From Hoyosella subflava DQS3-9A1 (GTDB taxonomy: Bacteria > Actinomycetota > Actinomycetes > Mycobacteriales > Mycobacteriaceae), in contig NC_015561.1 of NCBI RefSeq assembly GCF_000214175.1, positions 74,746-106,745 of the forward strand: a stretch of DNA of 32,000 nt, read 5' to 3'. Shown in pieces: positions 2,945 to 29,657 of this stretch; position 1 is the first letter of the stretch, and every line of letters starts with the position of its first letter. A model generated the notes under the pieces. It was given only the letters and a program-made list of their open reading frames with translations, was not told the origin of the DNA and ran no database searches. Made by a program: the position numbers and the translations under genes.

Positions 2945-4320
2945 GGGAGTGTCCGATAAAGGGTGGATCTGATCTTGGCATTGTTAGTTTCCGCTCGGGT
3001 TAATGCGGCCTTCGAATGCGATCGCGAACGCGTTGAGCGCTGGCTTCCACCTCACTGCCCAGCGTGCCTTGCCGCGCCCGGTTGGGTCCAGGGAACGGGT
3101 CACAAGATAGAGACACGTCAACGCGGCCTGCTCGGTCGGGAAGTGCCCGCGCGCCCGGATCGCTCTGCGGTAGCGCGCGTTGATGCTTTCGATGGCGTTC
3201 GTGGAGCACACGACACGCCTTATCTCCGGGTCGTAGGCCAGAAACGGCACGAACTCGCTCCACGCCTGGTCCCACATCCTGACGATCGCCGGGTAGCGGG
3301 GACCCCATTTGGCTGCGAACTCGCTGAACCGCTCCGATGCTGCGGCAGCGGTTTTAGCGGTGTACACCGGTTTGATGTCGCGGGCGATCTCGTCCCAGTA
3401 TTTGCGGGAGCAGTACCGGAAGGTATTGCGCAAGAGGTGGATTATGCATGTTTGAACCACCGCTTCCGGCCACACGGTATTCACCGAGTCCGGCAGCCCA
3501 GTCAGCCCGTCGCACACCACGATGCACACATCGGCGGTGCCGCGGTTTTTGATCTCGGTGAGCACCTGCAGCCAGTACTTCGCACCCTCTCCGCCCTCCC
3601 CGGCCCATAGGCCGAGGATGTCGCGCTCACCGTGCACGGTCACGCCGATGGCGACGTAGATGGGGCGGTTGGCGACCTGGCCGTCCCTGATTTTGACGTG
3701 AATAGCGTCGATGAACACCACGGGATACACGGCATCGAGTGGGCGATTGCACCACTCGGCCATCTCCGCGACAACCTTGTCTGTAATCCGGGAGATGGTG
3801 TCTTTGGAGACTTTCGCCCCGTAGATCTCGTCGAAATGCGCGGCGATCTCCCCAGTGGTCAGGCCTTTCGCTGTCAACGACAGCACGATCTCATCGACGC
3901 CGGTCAACCGGCGCTGCCGCTTACGCACAATCACTGGGTCGAACGACGCATCGGTGTCGCGCGGGACCTCGATCTCAACAGGCCCGATCTCGGTCAGCAC
4001 CGTTTTCGGTCTCGTGCCGTTGCGCGAGTTGCCGCTTCCGCGCCCCGACCGGTCGTGCTTGTCGTAGCCGAGATGCTCGCTCATCTCCGCTTCCAGCGCG
4101 GTCTCCAGAACCCTCTTTGTCAGCCGGTTGAGCAGCCCGTCCGGCCCGACCAGCTCCACGCCCTGCTCTCTGGCCTGCGCGAGCATCAGCTCCGCGACAG
4201 CCTTCTCATCCAATGTCTCCGCCACGGGATCCAGTGTTTCGGTCACCTCGGTTCCTTCCCACCAAGCAAACGCTCAGCGTGTCGAACCAAGATCAGATCC
4301 ACCGATAATCAGACAGTCCC
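2945..4320 (-). mobile_element. IS256-family insertion sequence, complete (1376 bp)
   Basis: Left end is GGGAGTGTCCGATAAAGGGTGGATCTGATCTTGG (2945-2978). The reverse complement of the right end is GGGACTGTCTGATTATCGGTGGATCTGATCTTGG (4320-4287). That gives 29/34 identical inverted repeats. Flanking 8-bp direct repeats GAGCGGCC lie at 2937-2944 and 4321-4328. A single transposase ORF fills the element. Confidence 0.9.
2984..4246 (-). CDS. IS256-family (mutator-type) DDE transposase, 420 aa
   Basis: ORF track. The sequence has the typical family layout: ...LNRLTKRVLETALEAEMSEHLGY...NSRNG...PKTV.T..G...I.VPRD...SF.P..V.K...R......I..L.AKG.TTGEI..H...IYG..VS...IS.ITD.V......W..RPL...YP.VFIDA... 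followed by ...VCDGL.GLP......P....Q.C..H..RN. Confidence 0.95.
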   Translation of the reverse strand: MTETLDPVAETLDEKAVAELMLAQAREQGVELVGPDGLLNRLTKRVLETALEAEMSEHLGYDKHDRSGRGSGNSRNGTRPKTVLTEIGPVEIEVPRDTDASFDPVIVRKRQRRLTGVDEIVLSLTAKGLTTGEIAAHFDEIYGAKVSKDTISRITDKVVAEMAEWCNRPLDAVYPVVFIDAIHVKIRDGQVANRPIYVAIGVTVHGERDILGLWAGEGGEGAKYWLQVLTEIKNRGTADVCIVVCDGLTGLPDSVNTVWPEAVVQTCIIHLLRNTFRYCSRKYWDEIARDIKPVYTAKTAAAASERFSEFAAKWGPRYPAIVRMWDQAWSEFVPFLAYDPEIRRVVCSTNAIESINARYRRAIRARGHFPTEQAALTCLYLVTRSLDPTGRGKARWAVRWKPALNAFAIAFEGRINPSGN

Positions 4321-4463: not shown

Positions 4464-5075
4464 TCAGCCGGTGGTGTGGCCTGCCCATGCGCGGATGCGG
4501 GTCATACGGTTCTCGCGGGCGCGGGCGGTGTGCCCGATCGTGAGGAGCTGCTCGAAAAGCCGGGCTTCGGGTGCGGTGCGCGCGGCCTGATCAAGAGTGA
4601 CCGCGGCCGCGGTGTAGGCGCGGCGCGCGGCCGCGGCCGCAACGAGGTAGGTCAGTGCGGGCAGGTGCAGCGGGTCGGCAGGGCTGGTAGTCGCGGCGGT
4701 AAGCAGCCGGGCCAGCGTGGTCCCGTGCTGCCCGCTGGTTTTCCCCGTGGCAGTGAGGGCAGCGAGGATCGCTGCGGGGTGATAGTCCCGCCCGTCTGTG
4801 ATGCGCTCAATGATCACCGCGGCGAGCTCGCCCGCGGCGGGCCGGTAGAAATCGGCGGGACCGATCAGCCCGGCCGCGGTGGCAGCGAGGTGCTCCGGCG
4901 CCCACATCAACGCCCCAAGCAACTGCACCTCATAGGCTTCCGCATCCGCCCCGGCAGCCTCAGCGAGGTCGCCCTCGCTGATCAGGATCGTTTCCTCGCC
5001 CAACTTCCCTCTTCCTAATTCTGTACCGCCGTATTTCTGTCTTTCCGTGTTTACGTGTTGAGGTTGACCCCACAA
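4464..5075 (-). CDS. Stand-alone DnaB-helicase N-terminal-domain-like protein
   Basis: ORF track (203 aa from TTG 5075). ...DAEAYEVQLLGALMWAPEHLAATAAGLIGPADFYRPAAGELAAVIIERITDGRDYHPAAILAALTATGK... matches the AE..vLGall....l......l...dFyrp.h..if..i.....g...d...l...L pattern of the DnaB N-terminal domain. No Walker ATPase region follows. The true start may be TTG 5003, which lies behind AGGAAGAGGG. Confidence 0.55.
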   Translation of the reverse strand: MWGQPQHVNTERQKYGGTELGRGKLGEETILISEGDLAEAAGADAEAYEVQLLGALMWAPEHLAATAAGLIGPADFYRPAAGELAAVIIERITDGRDYHPAAILAALTATGKTSGQHGTTLARLLTAATTSPADPLHLPALTYLVAAAAARRAYTAAAVTLDQAARTAPEARLFEQLLTIGHTARARENRMTRIRAWAGHTTG

Positions 5076-5299
5076 ACGTTTGTTTTTGATTGGTGGAGTT
5101 TAGCTACTGAGGTGGAGGACTACCGTTGCTCGGGACAGGGGGAAGACCTCGCAGGTTTCCCGCGGGGTGCCCCGGTTGGCCCGTATTTGCTGACCTTGGC
5201 ACAGCTTGCCGACCGCCATGTGCGGGGGACGTTCGCTGACGCGACGGCCACACTGTCTGCCGCTTTCAGGCTAGCGTCGCGTACGGTTCCAGCGAGCCG

Positions 5300-6700
5300 C
5301 TAGCGACCACTGGGTCTAGCGACTTGCAGGGTCCTCTCCAAGTCTGGGTATGTGTAGTAGCTACCAGGCTCTTCGTCCTTTTCACGCACGGTGGCGAGAA
5401 ACTCTTCGAACGCTTGGGCCCGCTCACCGCCGAGGTGCACAGTGGCGTGAAACAACGAAACCGCAAGACCGGGCATAAGTGCCGCGATGCGGCATTGGTC
5501 GTTGGCGGCCCATTCAACAAGCACCGACTTAAGATCTTGCACCGACAGGTACGGCGCGTGCTGGACTGCAAGCTGGCCAGCTTGTTCGCCCACGCGGAAG
5601 CTGTAAGCCTCTTTCACGGAACTGATCACGGTCGGGACGAAGTACCGATCCGGGTGCGCGGCAGCGATGTTCGTCCGGTGCAGTGGTGCCAGTGTGGAGT
5701 ACTGCTGTTCAAGGATCGGCAGACGTTCGCGGGCGAGGTCTTCTCGAATCAGCGCAAGGTATGCTGCTGTCTCCACAGGAAGCGGCTCCCACGTGTTAGC
5801 CGCCATCGGAAGCTGACTTAGCTGCTCGTTGATCCGGCTGGCAAGTGCCGGATCAACCATGTCCCAGAAGAAGTCCTGATCACCGAGACGCAGGAGCGCG
5901 CGTAGCTGTGTAGCGCCGTCCAGTGGCTGAAATCGCGCACTGAGATCGACCACAAGACTTCGCACTAGTTCGCGATCTCGAAGAGCGAAGGCTTTGACGG
6001 CCGTCGCCATCCGGTCGGCGTGTTCAATCGGCGTCAGCGGCACTGTTTCCGGTGGTGGGATCTCGAGGAGCGCATGCTTCGCCGCGAGGGACACGATGTT
6101 GCGGCGGGTCGCCGTCCGAACTCTGTCGAAGAAGGTGGCCTGGATATGCGGCGTTGTGGGCACGAAGTACGTGTCGCAAATGTAGGCCTTGAACTCTTCG
6201 AGAACCTTACGACCTTGGGTGGGTGGGTGAGTCAGGAGCGTTGACAACGCTACCGCTAGATGGGCACGGGCAATCTCGGGACGAGGATCGTAAACGTTGC
6301 CTAGCCCCCGGAGTGACGGATGGACGCACAGGTTGCGATCCTCGCGGATCCGCACCAACTCGCGGGCGCCGATAGAGTCGATAAATTCGAAGGCCTCGGC
6401 CTCAGCCAGAAGTGTGTCTTCGATCTCGCGCATAGCGCGTACACCGGGCGGGGTGATGCCCTGGGCTTTAGCGCTGCTGAGCTTGTCACGGAAGTCGGCC
6501 GCTTTGGCGTCGCCATCATCTGCAAGACGGGTGAGTTTCGAGATGATATCGGCAGTGACCGCAGTCCAGGTGGCGGCGATGGAAGCGCGAAAAGCTCCGG
6601 CGTTGTAGCACCGCCATGCCTCATCAGCAAGCGGGCGGACGGCGGGACTCCACACCTGGCCAACATATGTCTCCAGATCCATCACGACGGACCCTTTCAT
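5300..6700 (-). CDS. 466-aa protein with an N-terminal HEPN-type (DUF4145-like) domain and a long unassigned helical C-terminal region
   Basis: ORF track. ATG 6700 is preceded by GGGAAAG. The N-terminal ~150 aa are helical and contain ...ARELVRIREDRNLCVHPS...; RNLCVH (nt 6320-6337) fits the HEPN Rx4-6H motif with the usual polar residue after R. It starts 35 nt after the stop of the upstream Abi_C-like gene. Confidence 0.75.
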   Translation of the reverse strand: MKGSVVMDLETYVGQVWSPAVRPLADEAWRCYNAGAFRASIAATWTAVTADIISKLTRLADDGDAKAADFRDKLSSAKAQGITPPGVRAMREIEDTLLAEAEAFEFIDSIGARELVRIREDRNLCVHPSLRGLGNVYDPRPEIARAHLAVALSTLLTHPPTQGRKVLEEFKAYICDTYFVPTTPHIQATFFDRVRTATRRNIVSLAAKHALLEIPPPETVPLTPIEHADRMATAVKAFALRDRELVRSLVVDLSARFQPLDGATQLRALLRLGDQDFFWDMVDPALASRINEQLSQLPMAANTWEPLPVETAAYLALIREDLARERLPILEQQYSTLAPLHRTNIAAAHPDRYFVPTVISSVKEAYSFRVGEQAGQLAVQHAPYLSVQDLKSVLVEWAANDQCRIAALMPGLAVSLFHATVHLGGERAQAFEEFLATVREKDEEPGSYYTYPDLERTLQVARPSGR

Positions 6701-6735
6701 TCCGGCTTTCCCTATCGTGGCATTGCCTGGAGTGC

Positions 6736-7584
6736 TTACCCGGTACGAAAGTACGGAGGGCGCGATCGATCGAGTGTGGCCAGTGTGAACTCGGCGACGC
6801 TACATGCCTCTCTCACTACTAGGCGCGCAAGTTCGGGCGGTACGCCGGTTGGCAACGTCCTTCCATGGCCTGTGCCCTGAGCATTCCTCAGCTCGTTTAC
6901 TTGCTCGGCGATCTTCCAGGCGCTTTGCAGGATTGCTTTGATGTTATTTGCTCCGGGTGTGTTGCCTGCGACTTGTTGCGGAAGGATGTTCAGCCGCTCG
7001 CGGGCGAAGTACCACAGCTGTGGAAAGTCGGTCTTCTCGTTGATCGGCCAGTTCAGTTCGTGGAGCACGAACTTCGCAATAGCCTCAAGTAGATCTTTCG
7101 CTGATCCGAGTGCCAGCGCCGGGTCGCCGTCGGCTTGCTGCAGTCGGTGCAGCTGCTCATCGAGGGCGGGCCGACCTCCAGTATCGAGGTCTACTGGAGC
7201 AGCGTTCTGTAGTTCTCCCTCGTCTGATAGCTTCCATCCCTGCTTCTGAAATGCGGATTGTGCTCGGGTAAGCACATCACGCGGAATCAAACCGTCGTCG
7301 AAGAATCCATCGGCCCGCAAGTCTCGTAGGAGTGCGTCTACCAGCTCGCGCGCTTTCGCAGGCCGCCGAGTTGCAGCTCCCAGCACAGTGGATACTCGGA
7401 CTTCCTTGCTGGGGGTGCGTGTCTCGGAATCGTAAGGGTCCGAATCGATATACCCACTGCGGCGGAATGCTGCGCTGAGCTTCGTGTGGGTAGGGCCGGT
7501 ACCGCCGCTGTAGAATCGTGCGACGGTGGCAGCAATGTCGTCACTAATGGGTGGTCGTGTCACAACCTGAAATCCTAAGCTCAA
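6736..7584 (-). CDS. AbiJ-like abortive-infection protein with a C-terminal Abi_C (HEPN) domain, 282 aa
   Basis: ORF track. The C-terminal region reads ...ALGSAKDLLEAIAKFVLHE...AWKIAEQVNELRNAQGTGHGR... RNAQGTGHG is encoded at nt 6862-6888 and is the RN..G.GHG signature I associate with Abi_C. Start is ambiguous: TTG 7584 has no SD, while GTG 7563 lies 9 nt after AGGA. Confidence 0.75.
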   Translation of the reverse strand: MSLGFQVVTRPPISDDIAATVARFYSGGTGPTHTKLSAAFRRSGYIDSDPYDSETRTPSKEVRVSTVLGAATRRPAKARELVDALLRDLRADGFFDDGLIPRDVLTRAQSAFQKQGWKLSDEGELQNAAPVDLDTGGRPALDEQLHRLQQADGDPALALGSAKDLLEAIAKFVLHELNWPINEKTDFPQLWYFARERLNILPQQVAGNTPGANNIKAILQSAWKIAEQVNELRNAQGTGHGRTLPTGVPPELARLVVREACSVAEFTLATLDRSRPPYFRTG

Positions 7585-7904
7585 CTGCTGACAAGGTCGC
7601 GTGCCAATCGCGCCAGGATGCTTTACGCAGAGTCAGGAGCCCAACCCGACATATGTTCCGTTTCGTTGTGACGACACCAGATGTCGGGCGTTCTCGGTGG
7701 ACATCCACTCCTCAACCCTAGTCCTGCCCTGTCGCAGGAGATGTCAGGTTGGGGTACACCCCAACACCAGGTGCCAGCAGCCTGCCGCGGTCAGAGCGTC
7801 AGTCTGCGGATCAGTGGTCTGATCCTCTGTTGATACTCGCGCGTATCCCAGCATCGTCACGCCTGCAGCGTCTCATAACCCACTGACACGCCGATGTTTT
7901 GCGC

Positions 7905-8270
7905 TCAGTGTTTCGAGCATGAGTTTTGATGCATTCGGTTCCTGGCGAAACCGTGTCCCGGACGGTAAGCGTTGAAGTGGCTCATAAACGGGGATTTTTG
8001 CTGCCGTTCGATGCGCGCGTTGTTCTGCGGGAAGAGGTCTAGGTCGGCGACATCGTCTTCTTCACTGATCTGGAAGGTGTCGGTGAGGACGATGCCCTCG
8101 AAGGGCTGGTAGTCGCTGCCATGGACGCCGTGGAAGGTGGCTTCGATGTTGACGGCGGTGATGTAGTAGGCCAGCAGCATGATCTCGTTGGCGTGCAACT
8201 CGCTGGCGTATTTCCCGAGTGGCCCGATCCCCAGCATGTGCAGCCCCGCCACCTGCAGAAACTCGGTCAT
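7905..8270 (-). pseudogene. Internal fragment of a type ISP / YeeA-like N6-adenine methyltransferase (R-M remnant)
   Basis: The 121-aa ORF contains ...GKYASELHANEIMLLAYYITAVNIEATFHG....YQPFEGIVLTDTFQ..., a block I recognise from the methylase region of type ISP-like enzymes. The expected upstream SAM-binding motif and downstream NPPY-type motif are both missing. Similarity is lost after ...RIERQQKSP. Confidence 0.45.
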
Positions 8271-8414
8271 CGCCGATAAGCACCTGCCTGTCTGGCGGCA
8301 CGGGAAGCCGACCTAGCCGACAAACTGAAGGACAAAGCGCATGGCGGCCGTCCACCGAGAACGGCTGCAGAAACAACTCGACGACGTCCGCAGGGTCACC
8401 CTTCAGGAGCCACG

Positions 8415-8735
8415 ATGACGGAACAGGCAGAGAAGCGCACCTCGCCCGTCGCGCCGGCAACCGAGGGTAAGCTGCGTGAGGCGATGCGGCGACTCCTGAC
8501 CGGGACGGCGACCAAGACCGAGGGCCGCCTGACCAAGGCGAACCTGCACGTCGAGGCGGGGTCAGCCCGCCACCATGAACCGGGCAACGCAGATCACCGC
8601 CGAATGGGACGCCGCCGTCACCGACGCGGCGCCCCGAGAGGCTAAGTACACCAAGCTGGAGGAAGAGATCCAGACCCTCAGACGCACCGTCGCCCGACTC
8701 CGCGAGGAGAATTCGGCCCTGCAGAAGAAAACCAG
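8415..8735 (+). pseudogene. Frameshifted small HTH/coiled-coil gene remnant
   Basis: Frame 1 reads MTEQAEK...[17 protein letters not shown]. This continues sensibly only in another frame as (T)[15 protein letters not shown]...[26 protein letters not shown], a switch near 8571-8577 in the run ccgccacc. The second frame then runs without a stop into hsdM, which creates the artificial 932-aa ORF in the track. Confidence 0.3.
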
Positions 8736-8970
8736 GCCACGATGGCGGTGTTCGCCGACCAACGCGCCCAACTCCTCGCACTCCCAGAGCAGAAAAACCG
8801 ACAGAGTCGGTCGCAGTCCTGTGTGGCCATCGCCAGAAGCGGGAGCGCGGCGCGGCATGAGACCGCGATACAGCCCGCGACGCGACAGCGCAGGGCCGTG
8901 CCCCACACCCGGCCAACCACCACAGCGCGACACCTATACTTTAACGACCCTCACCAGCAAGGATTCCTCT

Positions 8971-11373
8971 ATGGCCCGCCTGACCTTGCCGCAGCTCGAA
9001 CGGCACCTCTTCTCGGCGGCCGACGTGCTGCGCGGATCGATGGAGGCGTCGGCCTACAAGGAATACATCTTCGGGATGTTGTTCCTGAAGTACTCGTCGG
9101 ATCAGTTCGAGGCTGAGCGTGAGAAGGTCATCGCCGACCAGCTTGCCAAAGGGCGTGATCAGGCCGAAGCCGAAAAGCGGGCTGAGAACTCGTCGTTCTA
9201 CAAAACCTTCTACGTCCCCGAACGTGCCCGCTGGCCGTATCTGCGCGACCACGCACACAAGCAGGTCGGTGACGAACTGAACAAAGCACTACAGGCCCTC
9301 GAAGAGCGCAACCCCGCCCTCGATGGCGTGCTTCAGCACATCGACTTCACCCGCAAGGTCGGGCAGTCGCAGATGTCGGACAAGAAGCTGCGCGAACTCA
9401 TCATGCACTTCAACAAGGAATCCTTGCAGCAGAGCCGCTTTGAGTTCCCGGACCTCCTCGGTGCCGCATACGAATACCTGATCAGTGACTTCGCCGATTC
9501 AGCCGGAAAGAAGGGCGGCGAGTTCTACACGCCCCGCTCGGTTGTGCGCCTCATGGTGCAGATCGCCGACCCACAAGAGGGCATGAGCGTCTACGACCCC
9601 TGCACAGGCTCGGGTGGCATGCTGATCCTGTCCAAGGACTATGTCGAAGAGAACGGCGGCAACCCCCGCAACCTTGCACTGGCCGGGCAAGAGAAAGACG
9701 GTAGCGTCTGGGCTATTTCCAAGATGAATTTGCTGCTGCATGGCATTGCTGACGCCGACCTGCGCAACAACGACGACGGCACGCTCGAAGATCCTGCCCA
9801 CATTCAGGGCGGCGAGCTGATGCGTTTCGATCGCGTCATCACTAACCCGCCGTTCTCGCTGAATTACAGCAAGGACGCCATCCCGTTTCCTGAACGCTTC
9901 CGCTATGGCTATACCCCTGAGTCCGGCAAGAAGGCCGACCTCATGTTCGTCCAGCACATGCTCGCCGTCACCCACACCGACGGCATGGTCGCCACCGTCA
10001 TGCCGCACGGCGTGTTGTTCCGCGGTGGTGATGAGGGTCGTATCCGGTCGGGCTTGCTTGACGACGACATCATCGAAGCCGTCATTGGCCTCGGCCCGTC
10101 CTTGTTTTACGGCACCGGCATTCCCGCCTGCATCCTGATCCTGCGCCACAAGGGCTCCAAGTCCATCGAACGGCAAAACAAGGTGTTGTTCATCAACGCT
10201 GACCGTGAGTACCGCGAAGGTCGCGCGCAGAACTACCTCGAACCTGAGCACATCGAGAAGATCGTCTCCGCGTACCGCGAGTTCGACGACATCCCCGCGT
10301 TCGCCAAGGTCGTCAGTCGCCAAGACCTGAAAGAGAACGACGACAACCTCAATATTCGCCGCTACGTCGACACCACCCCACCCCCAGAACCACAGGACGT
10401 GCGCGCCCACCTGCACGGCGGCATCCAGAAGACCGAGGTGGCCGCTAAGTCAGAGCTGTTCACCACCCACGGCCTCAATGTCGACGACCTTCTGGTCGAA
10501 CGTGACGCCGACTACCTCGAATTCGTGGCCACTATCACGGCCAAACGTCAGCTCAAGGAACTGATCGAGACCAACACTGGGGTCACGGGAGCCGAGACTG
10601 CCGTCACCCGCGCGATCGAAGCCTGGTGGAAGACCGAACGGCACTGCTTCACGGAGCTCGAGGCGACCTCGGACCTGATCGACCTCCGCAAGCAACTGGT
10701 CTCCACTTTCCAGACGACGCTGCAACCCGTCGGCATGCTCGACCGCTTCCAGGTCAGCGGCATCATCGCCAGCTGGTGGGGTGACAACCAAGCTGATCTC
10801 AAAACGCTGGCCAACATTGGATTCAAAGGCTTGATCGACGCCTGGGTCAGTACCGTGCTCGACGCTCTCGCGGAGGAGAAGGCGAAGGTCGACCCACTTG
10901 ACCACAAGGTCGCCCGCGCCCTTTTGCCCGAGTACCTCGAGGGCTTAGCGACGATCGAAGCTGTAGTTGCCGAACTTGATTCGACCATCAAGGCTGCCAC
11001 GGCCAAACCCGACGATGACGAAGCCGACGAAGCTCCAGAGGAACTATCGCCCGCCGAGCTCAAGAAGCTGAAGGCGCAACTCACGGCCGCTAGGAAACAA
11101 CTGAAGGCGGACAGAGCCGGGTTCGCGCAGAAGTTGAGCGATGCTAGTCAGGGACTCGATGACTCTACTGCACGCGAACTTGTCCTCGATTTGTTCCAGA
11201 CCAACATCCTCACCGTGGCCGACCAACGTGTCACCCGACATAGGCGAAGCATTGTCGACTCGTTCGAATCTTGGTGGGACAAATACCAAGTAACGCTCGC
11301 CGATCTTGAAGCTAATCGTGATTCTGCGGCCGAAAAACTTGCCGGGTTCCTCAAGGAGCTCGGATATGAGTGA
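8971..11373 (+). CDS. hsdM: Type I restriction-modification system, methyltransferase subunit HsdM (long form, 800 aa)
   Basis: ATG 8971 lies 7 nt after AAGGA. The N-terminus [41 protein letters not shown] is a typical HsdM N-terminal domain. Motif [10 protein letters not shown] is at 9595-9621 and motif IV NPPF at 9844-9855. About 270 extra C-terminal residues are helical/coiled-coil (...[28 protein letters not shown]...). Confidence 0.9.
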
Positions 11374-12547
11374 CTGGCGGACGACCACACTAGGTGAGAT
11401 CGTCGACGTGCTCGATTCGCTGCGTTGTCCGATCAACTCAGAGGAACGAAGTAAGCGCCTCGGCGACGTGCCCTACTATGGGGCCAACGGTCAGCAAGGT
11501 TGGATCGACAAACCGCTATTCGACGAGCCGCTAATTCTGCTGGCCGAGGATGGTGGGAATTTCGACGATTATGCACGAAGGCCGATCGCGTATCGAATTA
11601 CTGGACCATCCTGGGTCAACAACCACGCCCATATCATTAGAGCCGTACGCGGAAATGATCAAAACTTCGTGTACTGGAGCCTAGTCCATCGCGATATCCG
11701 CCGGTTCATCTCGGGCGGTACACGAACCAAACTTACTCAAGCGGAAATGCGTTCGATCGAGCTCAAAATCCCCGAGTACGAGGAGCAGCGGCGGATCGCG
11801 GAGATCCTGGACACGCTGGACGACCAGATCCGCGCCACCGAGCAGATCATCGCGAAGCTCAAGCTTGCTCGGGCAGGACTAATGGCTGATTTGGTGGAGC
11901 GTGACGATCACCGGCATTCGGATCGACACTGCATCGCCGATTTGGTGGCACCAGGCCAGTTTGGATCTGCAATCGGTCCCTTTGGAAGTAATTTGGTAGC
12001 CTCCGACTATCGCAATTACGGAGTTCCCGTGGTCTTCGTCCGCGATATTCAATCCGGGGTATTCGATAGTAAAAGTCAAGTATTTGTTTCTCCGCGCAAG
12101 GCGCGCGAATTAAATTCCCATCGGACCGACCCGGGAGATGTGCTAGTTACCAAAATGGGCGATCCCCCAGGTACTGCGGCGCTTCACCCGGCAGATTTTC
12201 CTTCTGGCGTAATAACTGCGGACATAATTAGGATCCGTCCGAATGGCAATATTGTTCTCCCTGAATGGCTGGTTATGTACATAAACTCACTACCAGTCAA
12301 GCAGCAGATTGGAATGATTGCAGCCGGTGTGACCAGGCAAAAGCTCACCCTTGCCGACTTTCGAAAAGTCACAATTGCACTACCTGGCATTGATATACAA
12401 CATCAAGTAGCCGAGAGGGTCGCTTCCGCTGATCACCTAATCGCCCAAGAGAAATCCCGTCTTGAAAAGTCGCAGATACTCAAGGTGGGACTCATGTCGG
12501 ATCTGTTGGCAGGTCGAGTCCGTGTACCTCTGGAGGCTGCCTCGTGA
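11366..12547 (+). CDS. hsdS: Type I R-M specificity subunit HsdS (393 aa, two target-recognition domains)
   Basis: ATG 11366 overlaps the hsdM stop (ATGAGTGA) and lies behind GGAG. Two TRD-like halves are separated by the conserved helical spacer ...[43 protein letters not shown]... The second conserved helix reads ...[43 protein letters not shown]. The tracked start at 11306 lies inside hsdM and is not preferred. Confidence 0.9.
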
Positions 12548-15500
12548 CTTCCGGCGCCGAATACACGGAGTCCGAGAAGCCGCTACTGGATCAGCTGATC
12601 AGCCTTGGTTGGCTCCATATCGAAGGTTCGAAGTCCGATCCTGGTGTGACTGGCCGTGAGTCGTTTCGAGAGTCGCTCGTCGAAACGACTCTACGAAAAA
12701 TGTTGCGGCAGATTAACCTCGGACCCGACGGCGAGCCGTGGCTGGATGATTTGCGCCTGTCGGAAGCCGTCTCTACCTTGACGCGCACCGAAACGGGCAA
12801 GTTGATCGAGATCAACGAGCGCATGACTGATCGTTTGCTCGAAGGCGTCTCGGTGCCCGGGCTGCCCGATTGGGATCAGGGCCGCAACCAGCGTGTGAAG
12901 TTCATCGACTTCGATCATCCCGAACGAAACGACTTCCTCGCAGTTAATCAGTTCCGGGTCGATGAACCTGGCGGACAAGCCAAGAAGTTCGTTGTGCCGG
13001 ATGTCGTGCTGTTCGTCAATGGCATCCCACTGGTGGTGATCGAGTGCAAAAGCCCGTATGTCACCGACCGTATGGCGGCGGGCATCAATCAGCTGCGCCG
13101 CTACGCTAATCAGCGCGACCTGGGTGCTCCAGAAGGCAACGAGCGACTGTTCTGGACCAATCAGTTCGTTGTCTCGACCTACGGGGATAAAGCACGCGTC
13201 GGTACCTTCACTTCGGGGGCCGAGCACTTCCTGGAATGGAAGGACCCCGCACCGCTGAGCCGCGATCAACTGGCTAAGCAGCTCGGCAAGCCCACAGCGG
13301 AACTGACCGGGCAAGAACTCTTGGTTGCCGGAATGCTCACCCCAGTGAATCTGCTCGACATCGTTCGTCACTACACGCTGTTCACCGAGTTCGGTGGTAG
13401 ACGGGTCAAGCTGGTAGCTCGCTATCAGCAGTTCCGAGCCGTTAGCAAAGCACTCGTTCGTCTCCGCACCGGCAAAACCCGCAAAATTGACGGTGAGCAT
13501 GACCGTCGCGGTGGGCTGGTCTGGCATACCCAGGGGTCGGGCAAGTCCCTGACCATGGTGTTCCTGGTGCGTGCGATGCGGTCCGACCCCGCATTGCGAG
13601 CTTTCAAGGTTGTGATCATTACCGACCGTACTGACCTGGAAAAGCAGTTGGCCGCGACAGCCAAGCTGTCGGGCGAGGCGGTTCAGCGGGCCCGAAAGTC
13701 GTCCAAGCTGCGCACTATGTTGGCCGAGCACGGTCCCGCCCTGGTGTTCGCCATGATCCACAAGTACCGCGACACCGATGCCGCCAATTCCGATGAGGGG
13801 CTTGAGGGTGACGACAAGGCCGAGGCCTTTGGCGTACTTAACACCGATGAGTCGATCGTGATCATGGTCGATGAGGCGCACCGTTCCCAAACCTCCACCT
13901 TGCACGCCAACCTGATGGCGGCACTGCCGAACGCCGCCAAGATCGGCTTCACCGGTACACCGATCATGCGCGCTGGCAAGAAGCGCACCGAATCGGTCTT
14001 TGGTGAGTTCATCGACAAGTACACAATCCGCCAGGCAGAAGCCGACGGTGCAGTGGTCCCGATCTTCTACGAAGGGCGCACAGCAAAGGGTGCGGTGGCC
14101 GGCGGCAGTGACCTCGATGAATTGTTTGAGGATATGTTCGCCGAGCTCAGCGATGCTGAGGTCGAGGAGCTCAAGGCCCGCTACGCCACAACTGGGGCGG
14201 TGGTCGAAGCGCCCAAACTGATCGCAGCGAAGGCGAAGTCAATGCTGTGGCACTACGTCTCGACGGTCATGCCGAACGGATTCAAAGCGCAGGTCACCGC
14301 GTCGAGCCGACTCGCGACGGTGCGCTACCGCGAAGCGCTGATCGCTGCGCGCGACGACCTGGTCGCGCAGATTGAGGCACTGCCAGCCCCTCTGCTCAAC
14401 GCTGATGCAGACGTCGACCAGCTTGACCGCAAGACCCAAGTTCTCGTGCGAGCCGCTGACCAGTTAGAACTGCTCAAGGCACTTGAATTCGTTCCGGTGA
14501 TCTCGGGCAGCAACAACGACGATCCGACGTGGGCGCAGTGGACAGACAAATCACGCCAGGACGCGGTGATCGAGGACTTCAAAAAGAAGCTGGGGTTGCC
14601 CGGCGAGAAGGCCAGCCCGGTCGCATTCCTGATCGTGCGAACAATGCTGCTGACCGGATTCGATGCACCTATCGAGCAGGTTCTCTACCTTGACCGCTCA
14701 ATTCAAGACGCGGAACTATTACAGGCCATCGCCCGTGTGAACCGCACTGCCACCGGCAAATCCGTCGGACTGCTTGTCGATTATTACGGCGTCGGTGCGC
14801 ATCTACAAAAGGCGCTCAGGGCCTATGCGCCAGAAGATGCTGACGATGCGATCGGTGCGCTGGCATCGATCAAAGACGAACTGCCGAAGCTGCGTGACCG
14901 TCACGCACGGGTCATCGCGATCTTCGCTCAGGCTGGAATCGACACATTCGATACTGCACAGGACGTTGAGGCGTGTGTCGAGGTCTTAGCCGACGAGGCG
15001 CTCCGCGCTCGATTCGGTGTTCGGCTCAAGGAGTTCCTATCGACGATGGACACTGTCATGCCGCGTCCCGAGGCCCTGCCGTTCGTCAAGGATGCCAAGC
15101 GGTTAGGCGTCATCTCACTGGCGGCCAAACGGCGATACCGTGACGACGGGCTTGGTGACTTCGACAGCTCGCTATTCGGCGAGAAAGTGCGGAAGTTAAT
15201 CGACGAGCATGTCACCGCGCTTGATATTGCCACGAAAATCCCGCCGGTATCGATCACTGATCCCGACTTCCTCGCCAAGGTGCAGGGTCTTACGTCCGAG
15301 AAGGCCAAAGCCTCGGAGATGGAGCACGCGCTGCGGTACCACATTCGCAAGAATTTCGATGAGGACCCCGCCCGTTACACCAAGCTTTCCGAGCGGCTCG
15401 ACGACATCCTCAACACTCTCACCGGCAAGTGGGACCAGTTGGCCCTGGCGCTTACCGAACTCCTCGATGACGCGCAGGACGACAGCAGCGGCGGCGCCGT

Positions 15501-15816
15501 CCACGAAGACCCGCTGGTTGCGCGGTTCTACGGGTTGCTTGAAGCTGAGTTCGCCACCGATGCGACACTGCCCGACGAGGTGCGGATCGACATTGTTCAC
15601 CTCGCCCAGGACATCGTCGTCGAAATCGAACGAGGCGCGAGCATCGTGCGTTTCTGGCACAACCCGCACGCTCAGGACACACTGCGCAAACAGCTGATCC
15701 ACACACTTGATGACCGCGACCTGTTCCCGTTCGAGGAACAAGAGCCGCTGGCCGACAAGCTGATGGAACTCGCTAAGGCGAACCAGTCGTTGCTCACCTC
15801 CCGGAGGCGGCAATGA
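12544..15816 (+). CDS. hsdR: Type I R-M restriction/helicase subunit HsdR (1090 aa)
   Basis: GTG 12544 overlaps the hsdS stop (GTGA). Walker A GSGKS is at 13534-13548 (WHTQGSGKSLTMVF) and the DEAH box at 13870-13881 (MVDEAHRSQ). Later helicase motifs include ...LLTGFDAP... and ...QAIARVNR... Confidence 0.95.
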   Translation: MTSGAEYTESEKPLLDQLISLGWLHIEGSKSDPGVTGRESFRESLVETTLRKMLRQINLGPDGEPWLDDLRLSEAVSTLTRTETGKLIEINERMTDRLLEGVSVPGLPDWDQGRNQRVKFIDFDHPERNDFLAVNQFRVDEPGGQAKKFVVPDVVLFVNGIPLVVIECKSPYVTDRMAAGINQLRRYANQRDLGAPEGNERLFWTNQFVVSTYGDKARVGTFTSGAEHFLEWKDPAPLSRDQLAKQLGKPTAELTGQELLVAGMLTPVNLLDIVRHYTLFTEFGGRRVKLVARYQQFRAVSKALVRLRTGKTRKIDGEHDRRGGLVWHTQGSGKSLTMVFLVRAMRSDPALRAFKVVIITDRTDLEKQLAATAKLSGEAVQRARKSSKLRTMLAEHGPALVFAMIHKYRDTDAANSDEGLEGDDKAEAFGVLNTDESIVIMVDEAHRSQTSTLHANLMAALPNAAKIGFTGTPIMRAGKKRTESVFGEFIDKYTIRQAEADGAVVPIFYEGRTAKGAVAGGSDLDELFEDMFAELSDAEVEELKARYATTGAVVEAPKLIAAKAKSMLWHYVSTVMPNGFKAQVTASSRLATVRYREALIAARDDLVAQIEALPAPLLNADADVDQLDRKTQVLVRAADQLELLKALEFVPVISGSNNDDPTWAQWTDKSRQDAVIEDFKKKLGLPGEKASPVAFLIVRTMLLTGFDAPIEQVLYLDRSIQDAELLQAIARVNRTATGKSVGLLVDYYGVGAHLQKALRAYAPEDADDAIGALASIKDELPKLRDRHARVIAIFAQAGIDTFDTAQDVEACVEVLADEALRARFGVRLKEFLSTMDTVMPRPEALPFVKDAKRLGVISLAAKRRYRDDGLGDFDSSLFGEKVRKLIDEHVTALDIATKIPPVSITDPDFLAKVQGLTSEKAKASEMEHALRYHIRKNFDEDPARYTKLSERLDDILNTLTGKWDQLALALTELLDDAQDDSSGGAVHEDPLVARFYGLLEAEFATDATLPDEVRIDIVHLAQDIVVEIERGASIVRFWHNPHAQDTLRKQLIHTLDDRDLFPFEEQEPLADKLMELAKANQSLLTSRRRQ

Positions 15817-16541
15817 ACCCCGGCGTCATGACGCTGCGCCTCGACGGGATGTCCGTACCGGTCGACACCGGAGGCAGCAGCCGCAAAGCGAAGCTCACCA
15901 TCGACCGTGATGGCAGCCTGCGCCTGACCGCAGCCCCTGACGTGGAACGCGCTGAGCTGGAGCGATTTTTGGCCTCCAAGCGTGCATGGATCTACGGCAA
16001 GCTCGCCGAGAAGGAAGCTCATAGCCACACGCCCGTCACCAAGGAGTTGGTCAGCGGCGAGGGCTTCCTCTACCTCGGGCGCAGCTACCAACTCCGCATC
16101 ACCGACACCGATGATCACCGCGTGAGCCTGCGGCGCGGCAAGCTGATACTTCCGCGATCGCTCAGCGATTCCGGCCATCAGCACATCATCGCCTGGTATT
16201 GCACGACCGGCCTCGCATGGCTCAAACCGAGAGCCAAGGACTGGGCTGCCCGCCTCCGAGTCGACCCGCAAGCGGTCGAAGTCGCTGACCTCGGCAACAA
16301 GTGGGGAGCCGCACTCCCCAGCGGCCGTGTGCGCATCCACTGGGCAACAATGCAACTCCGCCCCACGCTGGTCGAGTACGTCCTCGCGCACGAACTAGCG
16401 CATCTTCGCGAAGCACATCATGGGCCTGCGTTTTGGCAGCTGCTCGGTCGGGTCATGCCTGACTATGACCAGCGCAAGAAGCAACTCGCCGACACGGGGG
16501 CTTCCTTGTGGCAAGGACATGCGGATCTCCGCAGCTCGTGA
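15813..16541 (+). CDS. YgjP/DUF45-type (M48-like) zinc metallopeptidase, 242 aa
   Basis: ATG 15813 overlaps the hsdR stop (ATGA). HELAH is at 16389-16403 within ...EYVLAHELAHLREAHHGPAFWQLL... This family is a frequent accessory gene downstream of type I hsdR. Confidence 0.8.
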   Translation: MNPGVMTLRLDGMSVPVDTGGSSRKAKLTIDRDGSLRLTAAPDVERAELERFLASKRAWIYGKLAEKEAHSHTPVTKELVSGEGFLYLGRSYQLRITDTDDHRVSLRRGKLILPRSLSDSGHQHIIAWYCTTGLAWLKPRAKDWAARLRVDPQAVEVADLGNKWGAALPSGRVRIHWATMQLRPTLVEYVLAHELAHLREAHHGPAFWQLLGRVMPDYDQRKKQLADTGASLWQGHADLRSS

Positions 16542-16651: not shown

Positions 16652-17146
16652 TTACCCATAGGTTGCAGCTAGCCCTAGAGCAGCAACACCGATGGGTGCG
16701 AGGCTCATCGATATTTGCACGGCCCGGTGCTTCGCCCAGGCGATCTTGCTCATGTCAACTAGCTGCTTTGACAGCACGGGCAGGATAGGGCTGTTCTCCA
16801 GGTGTGCTTGCACAGCGTCAGGCGTCAGTTCTCGCAGGTGCCCGAAGTAAATGAAGTTGTTCTGCGACTCTTTAGCGAGATTCGTCGATCGGAGTCGCGG
16901 GCGGACCACCCATGCTGCAGATGCGACCGCTGCTACAAGCAGCAAGACACCGATGACGTACCAGAACAGCGACCATCCGGTTAGATCGCTAAACACGCGG
17001 CCCTTGCTCGACAGCGCAACTACTCCGGCTAGAACGGCGCTCTCGATCGTTAGGGCGAACGATGCCTTCGTGTCCACTTTGCCGGTCCAGTCGATCAGTG
17101 CCGAGTGGATCCTCCAGCCGGTGCCAACCGGGTCGGAACTGCTCAT
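16652..17146 (-). CDS. pycTM: Pycsar-type small transmembrane effector (164 aa)
   Basis: ATG 17146 overlaps the cyclase stop (ATGA, 17143-17146); the tracked TTG 17158 is less likely. The N-terminus ...HSALIDWTGKVDTKASFALTIESAVLAGVVAL... has the D.KA-type start of the Pycsar effector family. Hydrophobic helices are at FALTIESAVLAGVVAL, LFWYVIGVLLLVAAVASAAWVV and ISMSLAPIGVAALGLAA. Confidence 0.65.
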   Translation of the reverse strand: MSSSDPVGTGWRIHSALIDWTGKVDTKASFALTIESAVLAGVVALSSKGRVFSDLTGWSLFWYVIGVLLLVAAVASAAWVVRPRLRSTNLAKESQNNFIYFGHLRELTPDAVQAHLENSPILPVLSKQLVDMSKIAWAKHRAVQISMSLAPIGVAALGLAATYG

Positions 17147-29654: not shown

Positions 29655-29657
29655 GCC

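What the first reader, a model, noticed from the sequence alone, without database searches (positions are those of the whole stretch)
5300..7584. Operon of two different HEPN-motif proteins (AbiJ/Abi_C-like plus DUF4145-like with a 330-aa helical tail): candidate two-component abortive-infection RNase system
Two co-oriented minus-strand genes are only 35 nt apart (stop at 6736, next start at 6700).

The upstream 282-aa protein ends with ...LGSAKDLLEAIAKFVL... and ELRNAQGTGHGR (nt 6862-6888). This is the RN..G.GHG signature I associate with the Abi_C/AbiJ HEPN domain.

The downstream 466-aa protein has an N-terminal helical domain with RIREDRNLCVHPS (RNLCVH, nt 6320-6337). That is a second, different Rx4-6H HEPN-type motif of the DUF4145 kind. 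About 330 aa that I cannot assign follow it.

AbiJ-like proteins are normally treated as single-gene systems. HEPN RNases work as dimers with a composite active site. A fixed pairing of two divergent HEPN proteins could therefore be a heteromeric or a sensor/effector arrangement.

The location, between IS256 and R-M debris inside a defence island, fits a defence role.
Basis: partly seen in the sequence, partly recalled or inferred. Interest (0 to 1): 0.75.

Follow-up and report, generated by a model that had tools for sequence, protein, structure and literature searches.

The report
Two known HEPN defence genes, adjacent
Two neighbouring genes in a Hoyosella subflava defence island each belong to an already described single-gene family of phage-defence RNases (Abi_C/AbiJ/SadR-type and DARNA/PD-T7-3), and they are not found together anywhere else surveyed, so this is two ordinary systems side by side rather than a new two-part system.

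Summary
Two intact, co-oriented minus-strand ORFs (282 aa, 6736-7584; 466 aa, 5300-6700) lie 35 nt apart, each with an invariant HEPN Rx(4-6)H motif at the stated coordinates.

Both genes match named single-gene systems. The 282-aa protein is an Abi_C-domain protein (Pfam E 6e-20, RNAQGTGH motif, HEPN-fold C-terminus) of the AbiJ/SadR kind. The 466-aa protein is not DUF4145-like. It is a full-length homologue of DARNA (PD-T7-3, PDB "Dandelion"), a tRNA anticodon nuclease activated by ssDNA bound by phage SSB. Its "unassigned 330 aa" correspond to DARNA's helical ssDNA-sensing domain.

The pairing is not conserved:
- Among 56 non-redundant homologue loci of the 466-aa gene, 41 have enough upstream sequence and none has this Abi_C gene.
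- None of five independent neighbourhoods of close Abi_C homologues, nor one distant viral-contig homologue, has a DARNA-like gene.
- The nearest relatives of the two proteins sit in different genera.

The window is a dense defence island (type I R-M, Pycsar, Gabija, an RmrA-like gene), where unrelated defence genes often abut.

Best reading: two independent abortive-infection RNases, possibly co-transcribed here. The remaining novelty is modest: an actinobacterial DARNA clade with a strongly diverged sensor domain.

The parts
6736..7584 (-). Gene A: an Abi_C-domain HEPN protein. The ORF is 282 aa from a TTG start; NCBI annotates 275 aa from the GTG at 7563. It is an 'abortive infection family protein' of the AbiJ/SadR type.
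   Evidence: - ORF.
- Pfam Abi_C PF14355, E 6.2e-20, 71.5 bits against a cut-off of 24.
- PADLOC AbiJ, E 4e-6, C-terminus only.
- 513 homologues, all carrying Abi_C.
- AF2 model pLDDT 87.5.
6781..7023 (-). Abi_C / HEPN catalytic domain of gene A (residues 188-268). It contains the R-Phi-X5-H motif RNAQGTGH (R233..H240, nt 6888..6865).
   Evidence: - Pfam envelope.
- R233, G237, G239, H240, G241 and R242 are invariant.
- Foldseek matches HEPN domains 1o3u, 2hsb, 1wol and 7bxo_F with probability 0.95-1.0 and target-normalised TM-score 0.55-0.62.
- The motif type equals the commonest Abi_C form reported in PMC13590631.
7180..7563 (-). N-terminal domain of gene A (about residues 8-135). It is mostly helical with a small beta-hairpin, is conserved in the family and is unassigned. 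It is the putative sensor/regulatory domain.
   Evidence: - No Pfam hit at E<=10 apart from noise.
- Conserved residues H33, G44, K60, R63.
- Secondary structure.
- No structural match.
6701..6735 (-). 35-nt intergenic spacer with a GGGAAAG Shine-Dalgarno-like sequence and no terminator. It is compatible with co-transcription of A and B in this genome.
   Evidence: Sequence. No minus-strand terminator-like site and no sigma-70-like promoter in 4900-8300.
5300..6700 (-). Gene B: a 466-aa DARNA / PD-T7-3 / 'Dandelion' family protein of a divergent actinobacterial clade.
   Evidence: - ORF.
- PADLOC PD-T7-3, E 2.7e-18.
- PDB 9wxf/9wx2, E 1e-10 for the single sequence and 4e-15 for the family profile.
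- hhalign against the DARNA clade: 98.6% probability.
- Full-length bridging through intermediate sequences.
- AF2 model pLDDT 92.1, all-helical.
6206..6700 (-). HEPN RNase domain of gene B (about residues 1-165), with the catalytic motif R122-NLCV-H127 at nt 6337..6320.
   Evidence: - It aligns with the solved 'Dandelion-hepn' construct (9wx2) and with DARNA residues 1-159.
- R122/H127 align with DARNA R117/H122.
- Both residues are invariant in all clades.
5303..6205 (-). C-terminal alpha-helical repeat domain of gene B (about residues 166-466). It is the counterpart of DARNA's ssDNA-binding domain. Pocket equivalents are F368 (nt 5599..5597), E372 (5587..5585) and N400-D-Q-C403 (5503..5492).
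   Evidence: - hhalign extends to residue 286.
- Intermediates match the B profile end to end and the DARNA profile or PADLOC model to positions ~405-428.
- Bridged alignment: DARNA F368 maps to F368, D372 to E372, N401 to N400 and Q403 to Q402. W406 and N408 are not conserved.
- Weak alpha-solenoid Foldseek matches.

Best explanation
The locus holds two independent, self-contained abortive-infection RNase genes that happen to be neighbours in a defence island of Hoyosella subflava.

**Gene A (282/275 aa).** It is an Abi_C-domain HEPN protein of the AbiJ/SadR kind. By analogy with SadR, it most likely acts as a homo-oligomer, probably a dimer. When an infection cue is sensed, presumably through its conserved but unassigned N-terminal domain, its C-terminal HEPN site (R233/N234/H240) degrades single-stranded RNA.

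**Gene B (466 aa).** It is an actinobacterial member of the DARNA (PD-T7-3, 'Dandelion') family.
- An N-terminal HEPN domain (R122/H127) dimerises to form the active site.
- A ~300-aa C-terminal helical repeat domain is the sensor.
- In E. coli DARNA this domain binds ssDNA presented by phage SSB within a homododecamer and switches on cleavage of host tRNA anticodon loops, which arrests growth.

**What is shown here:**
- domain homology
- motif conservation
- fold predictions
- lack of any conserved partnership

**What is inferred from the characterised relatives:**
- RNase activity
- homo-oligomerisation
- the triggers
- the abortive outcome

The two genes may share one transcript here (35-nt gap, no terminator), but that is a local arrangement.
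For: **Gene B is a member of the DARNA family.**
- PADLOC PD-T7-3, E 2.7e-18.
- PDB 9wxf 'Dandelion' (460 aa, 12 chains) and 9wx2 'Dandelion-hepn', E 1e-10 and 4e-9, with RNLCVH aligned to RHLSAH.
- Dandelion numbering equals DARNA numbering +5.
- Family profile against 9wxf: E 4e-15 over chain residues 12-292.
- hhalign of the actinobacterial clade against the DARNA clade: 98.6% probability, E 8.5e-16, B residues 8-286 against DARNA 7-282.
- Intermediates such as P0315 and P0374 match the B profile end to end. They also match the DARNA HMM and the PD-T7-3 model to positions ~405-428.
- The catalytic residues and part of the ssDNA pocket are conserved.
- Same length and an all-helical architecture.
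- The DARNA mechanism comes from bioRxiv 10.64898/2026.02.22.705581.

**Gene A is an Abi_C protein.**
- Pfam E 6e-20.
- Invariant RN..G.GHGR motif.
- HEPN fold.
- SadR, a 266-aa single-gene Abi_C protein, is an ssRNA RNase that runs at ~66 kDa on native PAGE. Its R/N/H motif is needed for RNase activity and for defence.
- 2,257 of 2,815 surveyed Abi_C proteins have no recognised N-terminal domain.

**The two genes are independent.**
- Across the B-homologue loci fetched, an HMM of gene A found only the window's own gene plus one different AbiJ (AbiJ_NTD3 + Abi_C) 1.1 kb downstream in L004.
- 41 of 56 non-redundant groups have at least 900 bp upstream, and none has the partner.
- Annotated or called-gene neighbourhoods of close B homologues show IS3, a T4SS coupling protein, a methyltransferase, a pPIWI-RE REase, Vsr/Dcm and Shedu, never Abi_C.
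- Neighbourhoods of A homologues show OLD/UvrD (Gabija-like), AbiTii, AAA_21+HNH, a resolvase and a type IIG R-M, never a B homologue.
- Clustering of neighbours finds no recurrent neighbour for B's own clade.
- The one plasmid found with both families has them 270 kb apart.
- The nearest relatives lie in different genera.

**Context.** The window also carries type I R-M, Pycsar, Gabija and an RmrA-like gene.
Against: - In this genome the genes are only 35 nt apart, co-oriented and without a detectable terminator. Co-expression, and therefore some functional interplay, cannot be excluded.
- No experiment exists for either protein.
- Gene B's C-terminal domain is highly diverged from DARNA's. 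The PADLOC model covers only the N-terminal 37%. DARNA's W406, N408, R98 and the dodecamer-interface residues F6, N33 and E347 are not conserved. The trigger, substrate contacts and oligomeric state may therefore differ.
- The sample of gene A neighbourhoods is small (5 independent close contexts plus one distant viral contig).
- L004 shows a second case of a DARNA-like gene near an Abi_C gene.
Confidence: 0.8

Rival explanations
1. The two HEPN proteins form an obligate two-component system, either a heteromeric composite RNase site or a sensor/effector pair, encoded as a fixed operon.
For: - Adjacent, co-oriented genes with a 35-nt gap and no terminator.
- HEPN sites are formed at dimer interfaces (DARNA paper).
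- One other locus (L004) has a DARNA-like gene with an Abi_C gene 1.1 kb downstream.
Against: - The pairing is absent from all other informative loci of both families.
- In L004 the Abi_C gene belongs to a different subfamily (AbiJ_NTD3), sits on the other side of the DARNA-like gene and is 1.1 kb away.
- Characterised relatives of each gene work alone as homo-oligomers: the DARNA homododecamer and SadR at ~66 kDa.
- The two HEPN domains belong to different HEPN families. The gene A HMM does not hit gene B, and the gene B HMM does not hit gene A.
Confidence: 0.04
2. The two genes are mechanistically independent, but in this lineage they form a co-transcribed cassette that gives layered or synergistic protection. 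For example, both RNases may respond to phage ssDNA-handling proteins.
For: - Short gap, SD-like site and no terminator.
- Literature: DARNA is escaped through phage SSB mutations. Lactococcal AbiJ is escaped through mutations in a phage ssDNA-annealing protein. Related triggers are therefore conceivable.
- Defence genes in islands are often co-regulated (general knowledge).
Against: - There is no evidence of co-inheritance. The nearest relatives of A and B come from different genera and different contexts.
- Gene A's N-terminal domain differs from that of L. lactis AbiJ: PADLOC AbiJ matches only the C-terminus. Its trigger cannot be transferred from AbiJ.
- No transcript data are available.
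Confidence: 0.13
3. One or both genes are decaying remnants with no current function. They sit next to an IS256-family element in a region with gene fragments.
For: - An IS256/Mutator transposase at 2984-4246 and a DnaB N-terminal fragment ORF at 4464-5075 lie immediately downstream of gene B.
- An unassignable 121-aa ORF lies at 7905-8270.
Against: - Both ORFs are full-length relative to their family profiles: A covers HMM positions 1-270, and B matches 456-478-aa homologues over 97-99% of its length.
- All catalytic and invariant residues are intact.
- Both AF2 models are confident.
Confidence: 0.03

Closest known systems
DARNA (ssDNA-Activated RNase), also called PD-T7-3 (Vassallo et al. 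2022) and PDB 'Dandelion' 9wxf/9wx2; bioRxiv 10.64898/2026.02.22.705581
   Same: - Length of about 455-466 aa.
- N-terminal HEPN domain with the aligned, invariant Rx4H motif (R122/H127 against R117/H122).
- All-helical C-terminal domain of about 300 aa that is homologous through intermediate sequences.
- Conserved aromatic-368 / acidic-372 / N..Q pocket positions.
- Stand-alone gene found in defence islands and on plasmids.
   Different: - Only about 19% identity over the columns aligned by hhalign.
- The PADLOC model covers only the HEPN domain.
- Not conserved: the ssDNA contacts W406/N408, the RNA contact R98, the occluding loop 81-85 (DPYSP against VRAMR) and the dodecamer-interface residues F6/N33/E347.
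- The ligand motif, regulation and oligomeric state may therefore differ.
- Actinobacterial host rather than gammaproteobacterial.
SadR / AbiJ (Abi_C-domain HEPN RNases; PMC13590631, PMC3710099, PMC13064643)
   Same: - Protein of about 270 aa with a C-terminal Abi_C HEPN domain.
- R-Phi-X5-H motif (RNAQGTGH against SadR's RNEYGDAH) about 40 residues from the C-terminus.
- Single gene with variable neighbours.
- Located in defence islands, next to an R-M system, as noted for AbiJ solos.
   Different: - The N-terminal domain matches none of the Pfam AbiJ_NTD3/4/5 models, nor the L. lactis AbiJ N-terminus. PADLOC AbiJ aligns only residues 159-273.
- The trigger is unknown.
- AbiJ-NTD1 and NTD2 could not be tested because no model was available.
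HEPN-MNT (HepT/MntA) toxin-antitoxin pairs
   Same: A two-gene locus in which a HEPN RNase is adjacent to a second small gene. 7bxo, which I recognise as a HepT toxin-antitoxin structure (the PDB title says only 'toxin-antitoxin with AMP-PNP'), is among the structural matches of gene A's HEPN domain.
   Different: The partner here is another HEPN protein, not a nucleotidyltransferase antitoxin. The pairing is not conserved, and no MNT domain was detected.
HEPN 'backup effectors' embedded in BREX loci (PMC12839542)
   Same: A distant, full-length sub-clade of the same DARNA-like family lies between BrxC and PglXI in at least 8 non-redundant loci.
   Different: Gene B's own clade has no BREX neighbours, and no BREX genes were found among the window ORFs scanned.

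Membership tests
DARNA / PD-T7-3 / Dandelion | N-terminal HEPN domain homologous to the DARNA HEPN domain (aa 1-159) | tested here: met
   - PADLOC PD-T7-3, E 2.7e-18, residues 9-170 against model positions 6-163.
- 9wx2 'Dandelion-hepn', E 3.6e-9.
- Family profile, E 3e-13.
- hhalign, 98.6% probability.
DARNA / PD-T7-3 / Dandelion | Catalytic Rx4H motif equivalent to R117/H122 | tested here: met
   R122 and H127 align with the DARNA motif. They are invariant in 34 close homologues and in all 46 sequences of the bridged alignment.
DARNA / PD-T7-3 / Dandelion | C-terminal alpha-helical (Pds5-like) domain of about 300 aa homologous to DARNA residues 160-456 | tested here: met
   - Direct hhalign alignment to B residue 286.
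- The distal part is bridged by intermediates that match both profiles and the PD-T7-3 model to positions 416-422 of 432.
- The AF2 model is all-helical, with weak solenoid matches.
- Evidence for the last ~170 aa is indirect. No superposition on 9wxf was possible.
DARNA / PD-T7-3 / Dandelion | ssDNA 'CT'-recognition residues F368, D372, W406, N408 | tested here: inconclusive
   Bridged alignment: F368 maps to F368 (aromatic in all clades) and D372 to E372 (acidic). W406 maps to I405 and N408 to A407, so these two are not conserved. They also vary within the DARNA clade itself.
DARNA / PD-T7-3 / Dandelion | Stand-alone single-gene system with no conserved partner | tested here: met
   No recurrent neighbour in gene B's clade.
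DARNA / PD-T7-3 / Dandelion | Homododecamer assembly; dodecamer-interface residues F6, N33, E347 | tested here: not met
   The interface residues map to M7, A34 and A347 and are not conserved in the clade. The oligomeric state itself cannot be tested with these tools.
DARNA / PD-T7-3 / Dandelion | tRNA anticodon-loop cleavage activated by ssDNA presented by phage SSB; abortive infection | not testable with these tools
   These are biochemical and phage assays, known only for E. coli DARNA.
Abi_C / AbiJ / SadR | Pfam Abi_C (PF14355) domain above the gathering threshold | tested here: met
   71.5 bits against a cut-off of 24, E 6.2e-20, residues 188-268 covering model positions 1-82 of 83.
Abi_C / AbiJ / SadR | HEPN R-Phi-X(3-5)H RNase motif in the Abi_C region | tested here: met
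   R233-N234-AQGTG-H240, with R233 and H240 invariant and N234 present in the family consensus. An X=5 spacer is the commonest form. The equivalent SadR residues are essential.
Abi_C / AbiJ / SadR | HEPN fold of the C-terminal domain | tested here: met
   Foldseek top specific matches are HEPN domains 1o3u, 2hsb, 1wol, 7bxo_F and 3o10, with probability 0.63-1.0 and target-normalised TM-score 0.47-0.62. The E-values are weak, 0.2-2.5.
Abi_C / AbiJ / SadR | AbiJ-type N-terminal domain (AbiJ_NTD3/4/5 in Pfam; L. lactis AbiJ N-terminus) | tested here: not met
   No Pfam N-terminal-domain hit. PADLOC AbiJ aligns only residues 159-273 to model positions 170-279. The protein therefore falls in the 'no recognised NTD' class. 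AbiJ-NTD1 and NTD2 were not testable.
Abi_C / AbiJ / SadR | Single-gene system with variable neighbours | tested here: met
   Five independent neighbourhoods have different flanking genes.
   No Pfam family at E<=1 for the whole protein or at E<=10 for residues 1-170.
   - None of 41 informative non-redundant B loci has the partner.
- None of 5 independent close A contexts, nor one distant viral-contig context, has the partner.
- The one plasmid with both families has them 270 kb apart.

The most novel reading that the evidence does not exclude
The actinobacterial clade represented by gene B may be a functionally distinct DARNA variant. It keeps the HEPN tRNase core and part of the nucleic-acid pocket (aromatic 368, acidic 372, N400/Q402). 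It has replaced the other ssDNA contacts, the active-site occluding loop and the dodecamer interface. It could therefore sense a different ligand or assemble differently. In Hoyosella it may additionally be co-expressed with an Abi_C RNase whose relatives are escaped through phage ssDNA-annealing-protein mutations, which would give two RNases that monitor phage ssDNA metabolism from one transcript.
Probability: 0.15. Interest if true: 0.45.

Novelty: new member of a known kind. Interest (0 to 1): 0.2.

Why it matters
For annotators the main result is negative. Adjacency of two defence-type genes inside a defence island is not evidence of a system, and this pair should be annotated as two separate single-gene systems.

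The positive points are modest.
- The DARNA/PD-T7-3 family is large: 1,853 cluster representatives at E<=1e-3.
- It includes a sizeable actinobacterial clade, found on chromosomes and plasmids of Streptomyces, Amycolatopsis, Nocardia, Rhodococcus, Gordonia and Mycolicibacterium.
- The PADLOC PD-T7-3 model matches only the N-terminal third of these proteins, and the local Pfam-A copy has no model that hits them.
- These proteins are currently labelled 'hypothetical'. They can now be given a mechanistic hypothesis: a tRNA-cleaving HEPN RNase activated by ssDNA.
- The divergence of the sensor domain points to where ligand specificity might vary.

Tried and rejected
1. **Genome scan.** I compensated with the alignment-based metagenome scan, plasmid tblastn and the look-up of encoding contigs.
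2. **Fold search, gene B.** Foldseek of the gene B model against the PDB gave only weak alpha-solenoid matches, and 9wxf did not appear; it is probably absent from that library (releases up to 2026-04-08).
4. **DUF4145.** The assignment was rejected: no Pfam hit.
5. **NCBIfam.** No hits for either protein.
6. **PHROGs.** Only a weak unknown-function hit for A.
7. **RNA antitoxin or repeat array, as in AbiF/AbiV-type HEPN systems.** No tandem repeats and no Rfam match in 4900-8700.
8. **False alarm in L100.** A 466-aa gene upstream of the closest gene A homologue has the same length as gene B. It is an unrelated proline-rich membrane protein.
9. **115-aa ORFs.** The ORFs following a B homologue (L098) and an A homologue (L099) are unrelated.
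10. **Viral-contig scans.** They gave one locus each and no co-occurrence.
11. **Replicon.** Megablast of the region against plasmids found nothing.
12. **Literature.** Searches for 'Dandelion' found no paper.
13. **P0129 look-up.** No contig on record.


Full report
**Observation.** The window comes from Hoyosella subflava: the 466-aa product is 100% identical to an NCBI H. subflava protein. It contains the two minus-strand ORFs exactly as described. Gene A is 6736-7584 (282 aa from TTG; NCBI annotates 275 aa from the GTG at residue 8). Gene B is 5300-6700 (466 aa, ATG). They are separated by 35 nt that carry a GGGAAAG Shine-Dalgarno-like sequence. No terminator-like hairpin lies between them on the minus strand. 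The motifs are not chance matches: R233/H240 and R122/H127 are invariant across the respective families.

**Gene A.**
- Pfam Abi_C (PF14355) matches residues 188-268 at E 6e-20, 71.5 bits against a cut-off of 24.
- PADLOC's AbiJ model matches weakly and only over the C-terminus.
- All 120 listed homologues carry Abi_C, and those that carry a name are annotated 'abortive infection family protein'.
- The AF2 model (pLDDT 87.5) has a conserved, mostly helical N-terminal domain (about residues 15-127) with no Pfam or structural match.
- Its C-terminal helical domain finds HEPN structures as its best specific Foldseek matches: TM0613 1o3u, AF_0298 2hsb, ST0689 1wol, the toxin-antitoxin entry 7bxo, and the sacsin HEPN domain. 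Probabilities reach 1.0, although the E-values are weak.
- The motif R233-N-AQGTG-H240 is the R-Phi-X5-H form reported as commonest among 2,815 Abi_C proteins, of which 2,257 have no recognised N-terminal domain.
- The characterised member SadR (266 aa) acts as a single gene, degrades ssRNA, runs at about 66 kDa against a 30.4-kDa monomer, and needs R225/N226/H232 for RNase activity and defence.
- For lactococcal AbiJ no mechanism is known, but escape mutants map to a phage ssDNA-annealing protein.

**Gene B.**
- Pfam and NCBIfam give nothing, so 'DUF4145-like' is not supported.
- PADLOC's PD-T7-3 model matches residues 9-170 at E 2.7e-18.
- The PDB sequence search finds 'Dandelion' (9wxf, 460 aa, 12 chains) and 'Dandelion-hepn' (9wx2) at E 1e-10 and 4e-9, with RNLCVH aligned to RHLSAH.
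- PD-T7-3 has been renamed DARNA. It is a single-gene abortive-infection protein of 456 aa.
  - It has an N-terminal HEPN domain (R117x4H122).
  - It has a C-terminal Pds5-like helical domain that binds ssDNA 'CT' motifs.
  - It forms a homododecamer.
  - It cleaves tRNA anticodon loops when ssDNA is presented by phage SSB.
- Dandelion's chain numbering is DARNA's plus 5 (F11/N38/R122/H127 against F6/N33/R117/H122). P0390 is 94% identical to the reconstructed Dandelion fragment and carries all the residues named in the paper. It is PD-T7-3 by PADLOC over its full length, E 2e-164.

**Is the homology full-length?**
- The family profile aligns with 9wxf to chain residue 292.
- hhalign of the actinobacterial clade against the DARNA clade gives 98.6% probability over B residues 8-286.
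- The distal 170 residues are bridged by intermediates. Proteins such as P0315, P0374, P0372 and P0346 match the gene B profile end to end. They also match the DARNA-clade HMM and the PD-T7-3 model to positions ~405-428.
- In a bridged alignment, DARNA's F368, D372, N401 and Q403 map to gene B F368, E372, N400 and Q402, which are conserved in kind in all clades.
- W406, N408, the RNA contact R98, the occluding loop 81-85 and the dodecamer-interface residues F6/N33/E347 are not conserved.
- The AF2 model (pLDDT 92.1) is entirely helical and gives only weak alpha-solenoid matches. 9wxf did not appear among the Foldseek matches and is probably absent from that library, and the other fold libraries were unavailable.
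- The '330 unassignable residues' are therefore the DARNA sensor domain, strongly diverged.
- The family is large: 1,853 cluster representatives at E<=1e-3, mostly about 450 aa.

**Is the pairing conserved?** No.

*Gene B side.* I collected one genomic locus, 80 metagenomic loci and further plasmid and assembly loci with gene B homologues, and searched six-frame ORFs with an HMM of gene A's family.
- The only hits next to a B homologue were the window itself and L004.
- The L004 gene is a canonical AbiJ (AbiJ_NTD3 + Abi_C), a different subfamily, lying 1.1 kb downstream rather than upstream.
- Of 56 non-redundant groups, 41 have at least 900 bp upstream. In the close clade, 15 groups are informative and none has the partner.
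- Annotated neighbours of close B homologues are IS3 transposases, a T4SS coupling protein, a methyltransferase, a pPIWI-RE REase locus, Vsr/Dcm and Shedu.

*Gene A side.* Neighbourhoods of gene A homologues, including the closest one at 76% identity, show Gabija-like OLD/UvrD genes, AbiTii, AAA_21+HNH, resolvases and a type IIG R-M. None shows a DARNA-like gene.

*Other evidence.*
- The one plasmid found with both families has them 270 kb apart.
- The nearest relatives of A are in Rhodococcus, Mycobacterium and Mycobacteroides. Those of B are in Nonomuraea, Streptosporangium, Micromonospora and Amycolatopsis.
- Neighbour clustering finds no recurrent neighbour for gene B's clade.

**Context.** The window is a dense defence island.

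| Coordinates | Feature |
|---|---|
| 2984-4246 | IS256/Mutator transposase |
| 8575-16541 | apparently intact type I R-M (hsdM/S/R) plus a YgjP-like peptidase |
| 16652-17874 | Pycsar (PycTM + PycC) |
| 25288-26457 | RmrA-like gene |
| 27909-31415 | Gabija (GajA/GajB) |

In such islands unrelated defence genes routinely abut. Anantharaman et al. also noted that AbiJ-family solos often sit beside R-M operons. No RNA antitoxin-like repeat or Rfam element lies near the pair.

**Conclusion.** The best-supported reading (confidence about 0.8) is two independent single-gene HEPN RNase defence systems, an Abi_C/SadR-type RNase and a divergent DARNA-family tRNase. They are juxtaposed and possibly co-transcribed in this genome. 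The heteromeric or sensor-effector model is not supported (about 0.04). A looser 'co-expressed, synergistic cassette' cannot be excluded (about 0.13). Activities, triggers and oligomeric states are inferred from characterised relatives, not shown here. The divergence of gene B's sensor and interface residues means that its ligand and assembly may differ from E. coli DARNA.

**Novelty.** These are new members of known kinds, and interest is low. The useful by-products are:
- a mechanistic annotation for a large set of actinobacterial 'hypothetical proteins' that the PADLOC PD-T7-3 model matches only over the N-terminal third;
- the observation that a distant sub-clade of the same family is embedded between BrxC and PglXI in BREX loci. 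This is consistent with the 'backup HEPN effector' idea already published for BREX.

Noticed in passing
L036:1097-9161 (also L032, L033, L034, L038, L040, L043, L046, L078): A distant, full-length DARNA/PD-T7-3-like gene lies directly between BrxC (DUF6079, PADLOC E=0) and PglXI methyltransferase (PADLOC E=0) of a BREX locus, in at least 8 non-redundant groups. In L036 it is at 4956-6284 (PADLOC PD-T7-3 E 1.4e-34 over model positions 6-398 of 432). HEPN 'backup effectors' in BREX loci are described in general terms in PMC12839542. I did not find the link to the DARNA family stated there.
   Followed up: partly
window:16652-17874: Pycsar system on the minus strand: PycTM effector 16652-17158 (PADLOC E 2e-46, Pfam PycTM) overlapping the PycC cyclase 17143-17874 (PADLOC E 1e-65).
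   Followed up: partly
window:27909-31415: Gabija system: GajA 27909-29654 (PADLOC E 2e-190) and GajB 29658-31415 (E 1e-176).
   Followed up: partly
window:25288-27269: RmrA-like HTH + ImmA-type peptidase gene at 25288-26457(-) (PADLOC RmrA E 2e-92). A 271-aa ORF at 26454-27269(-) overlaps its start by 4 nt and has no PADLOC hit. This may be a two-gene defence or regulatory module.
   Followed up: no
window:8575-16541: The type I R-M system looks intact rather than 'debris'.
- HsdM: N6_Mtase E 3e-98. The ORF has about 140 extra N-terminal residues before HsdM_N, so the true start is probably later.
- HsdS: 11306-12547.
- HsdR: 12544-15816.
- YgjP-like metallopeptidase: 15813-16541.
   Followed up: partly
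window:4464-5075 and 7905-8270: A 203-aa ORF with only a DnaB N-terminal domain (E 1e-5) lies between gene B and the IS256-family transposase and is probably a truncated gene. A 121-aa ORF between gene A and hsdM has no hit in Pfam at E<=10.
   Followed up: partly
L099:2154-3848: In Rhodococcus sp. GG48 a 564-aa protein lies 152 nt upstream of the gene A homologue, on the same strand. It has no Pfam hit and ends with '...RRLYRQRNLLMHGGS', a HEPN-like RNxxxH motif. This is a second case of an Abi_C gene next to a different putative HEPN protein. I did not examine it further.
   Followed up: no
L004:798-4369: This metagenomic contig carries a close gene B homologue (63% identity) followed 1.1 kb downstream, on the same strand, by a canonical AbiJ (AbiJ_NTD3 E 5.5e-53 + Abi_C). 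It is the only other DARNA-like/Abi_C proximity found. The subfamily and gene order differ from the window.
   Followed up: yes
L105:2904-5371: A 65%-identical gene B homologue lies 152 nt downstream of a Shedu SduA_C gene (E 2e-16) on the same strand. This is another example of this gene abutting an unrelated defence gene.
   Followed up: yes
P0054, P0114 (gene B homologues): The precomputed annotation lists Pfam PF27235.1 for two gene B homologues, but the local Pfam-A copy has no such model and gives no hit for P0054. A newer Pfam family may already cover part of this protein family.
   Followed up: partly
literature: DARNA is escaped through phage SSB mutations. Lactococcal AbiJ is escaped through phage ssDNA-annealing-protein mutations. 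Both HEPN families adjacent here have relatives linked to phage ssDNA-handling proteins. This may be coincidental.
   Followed up: no
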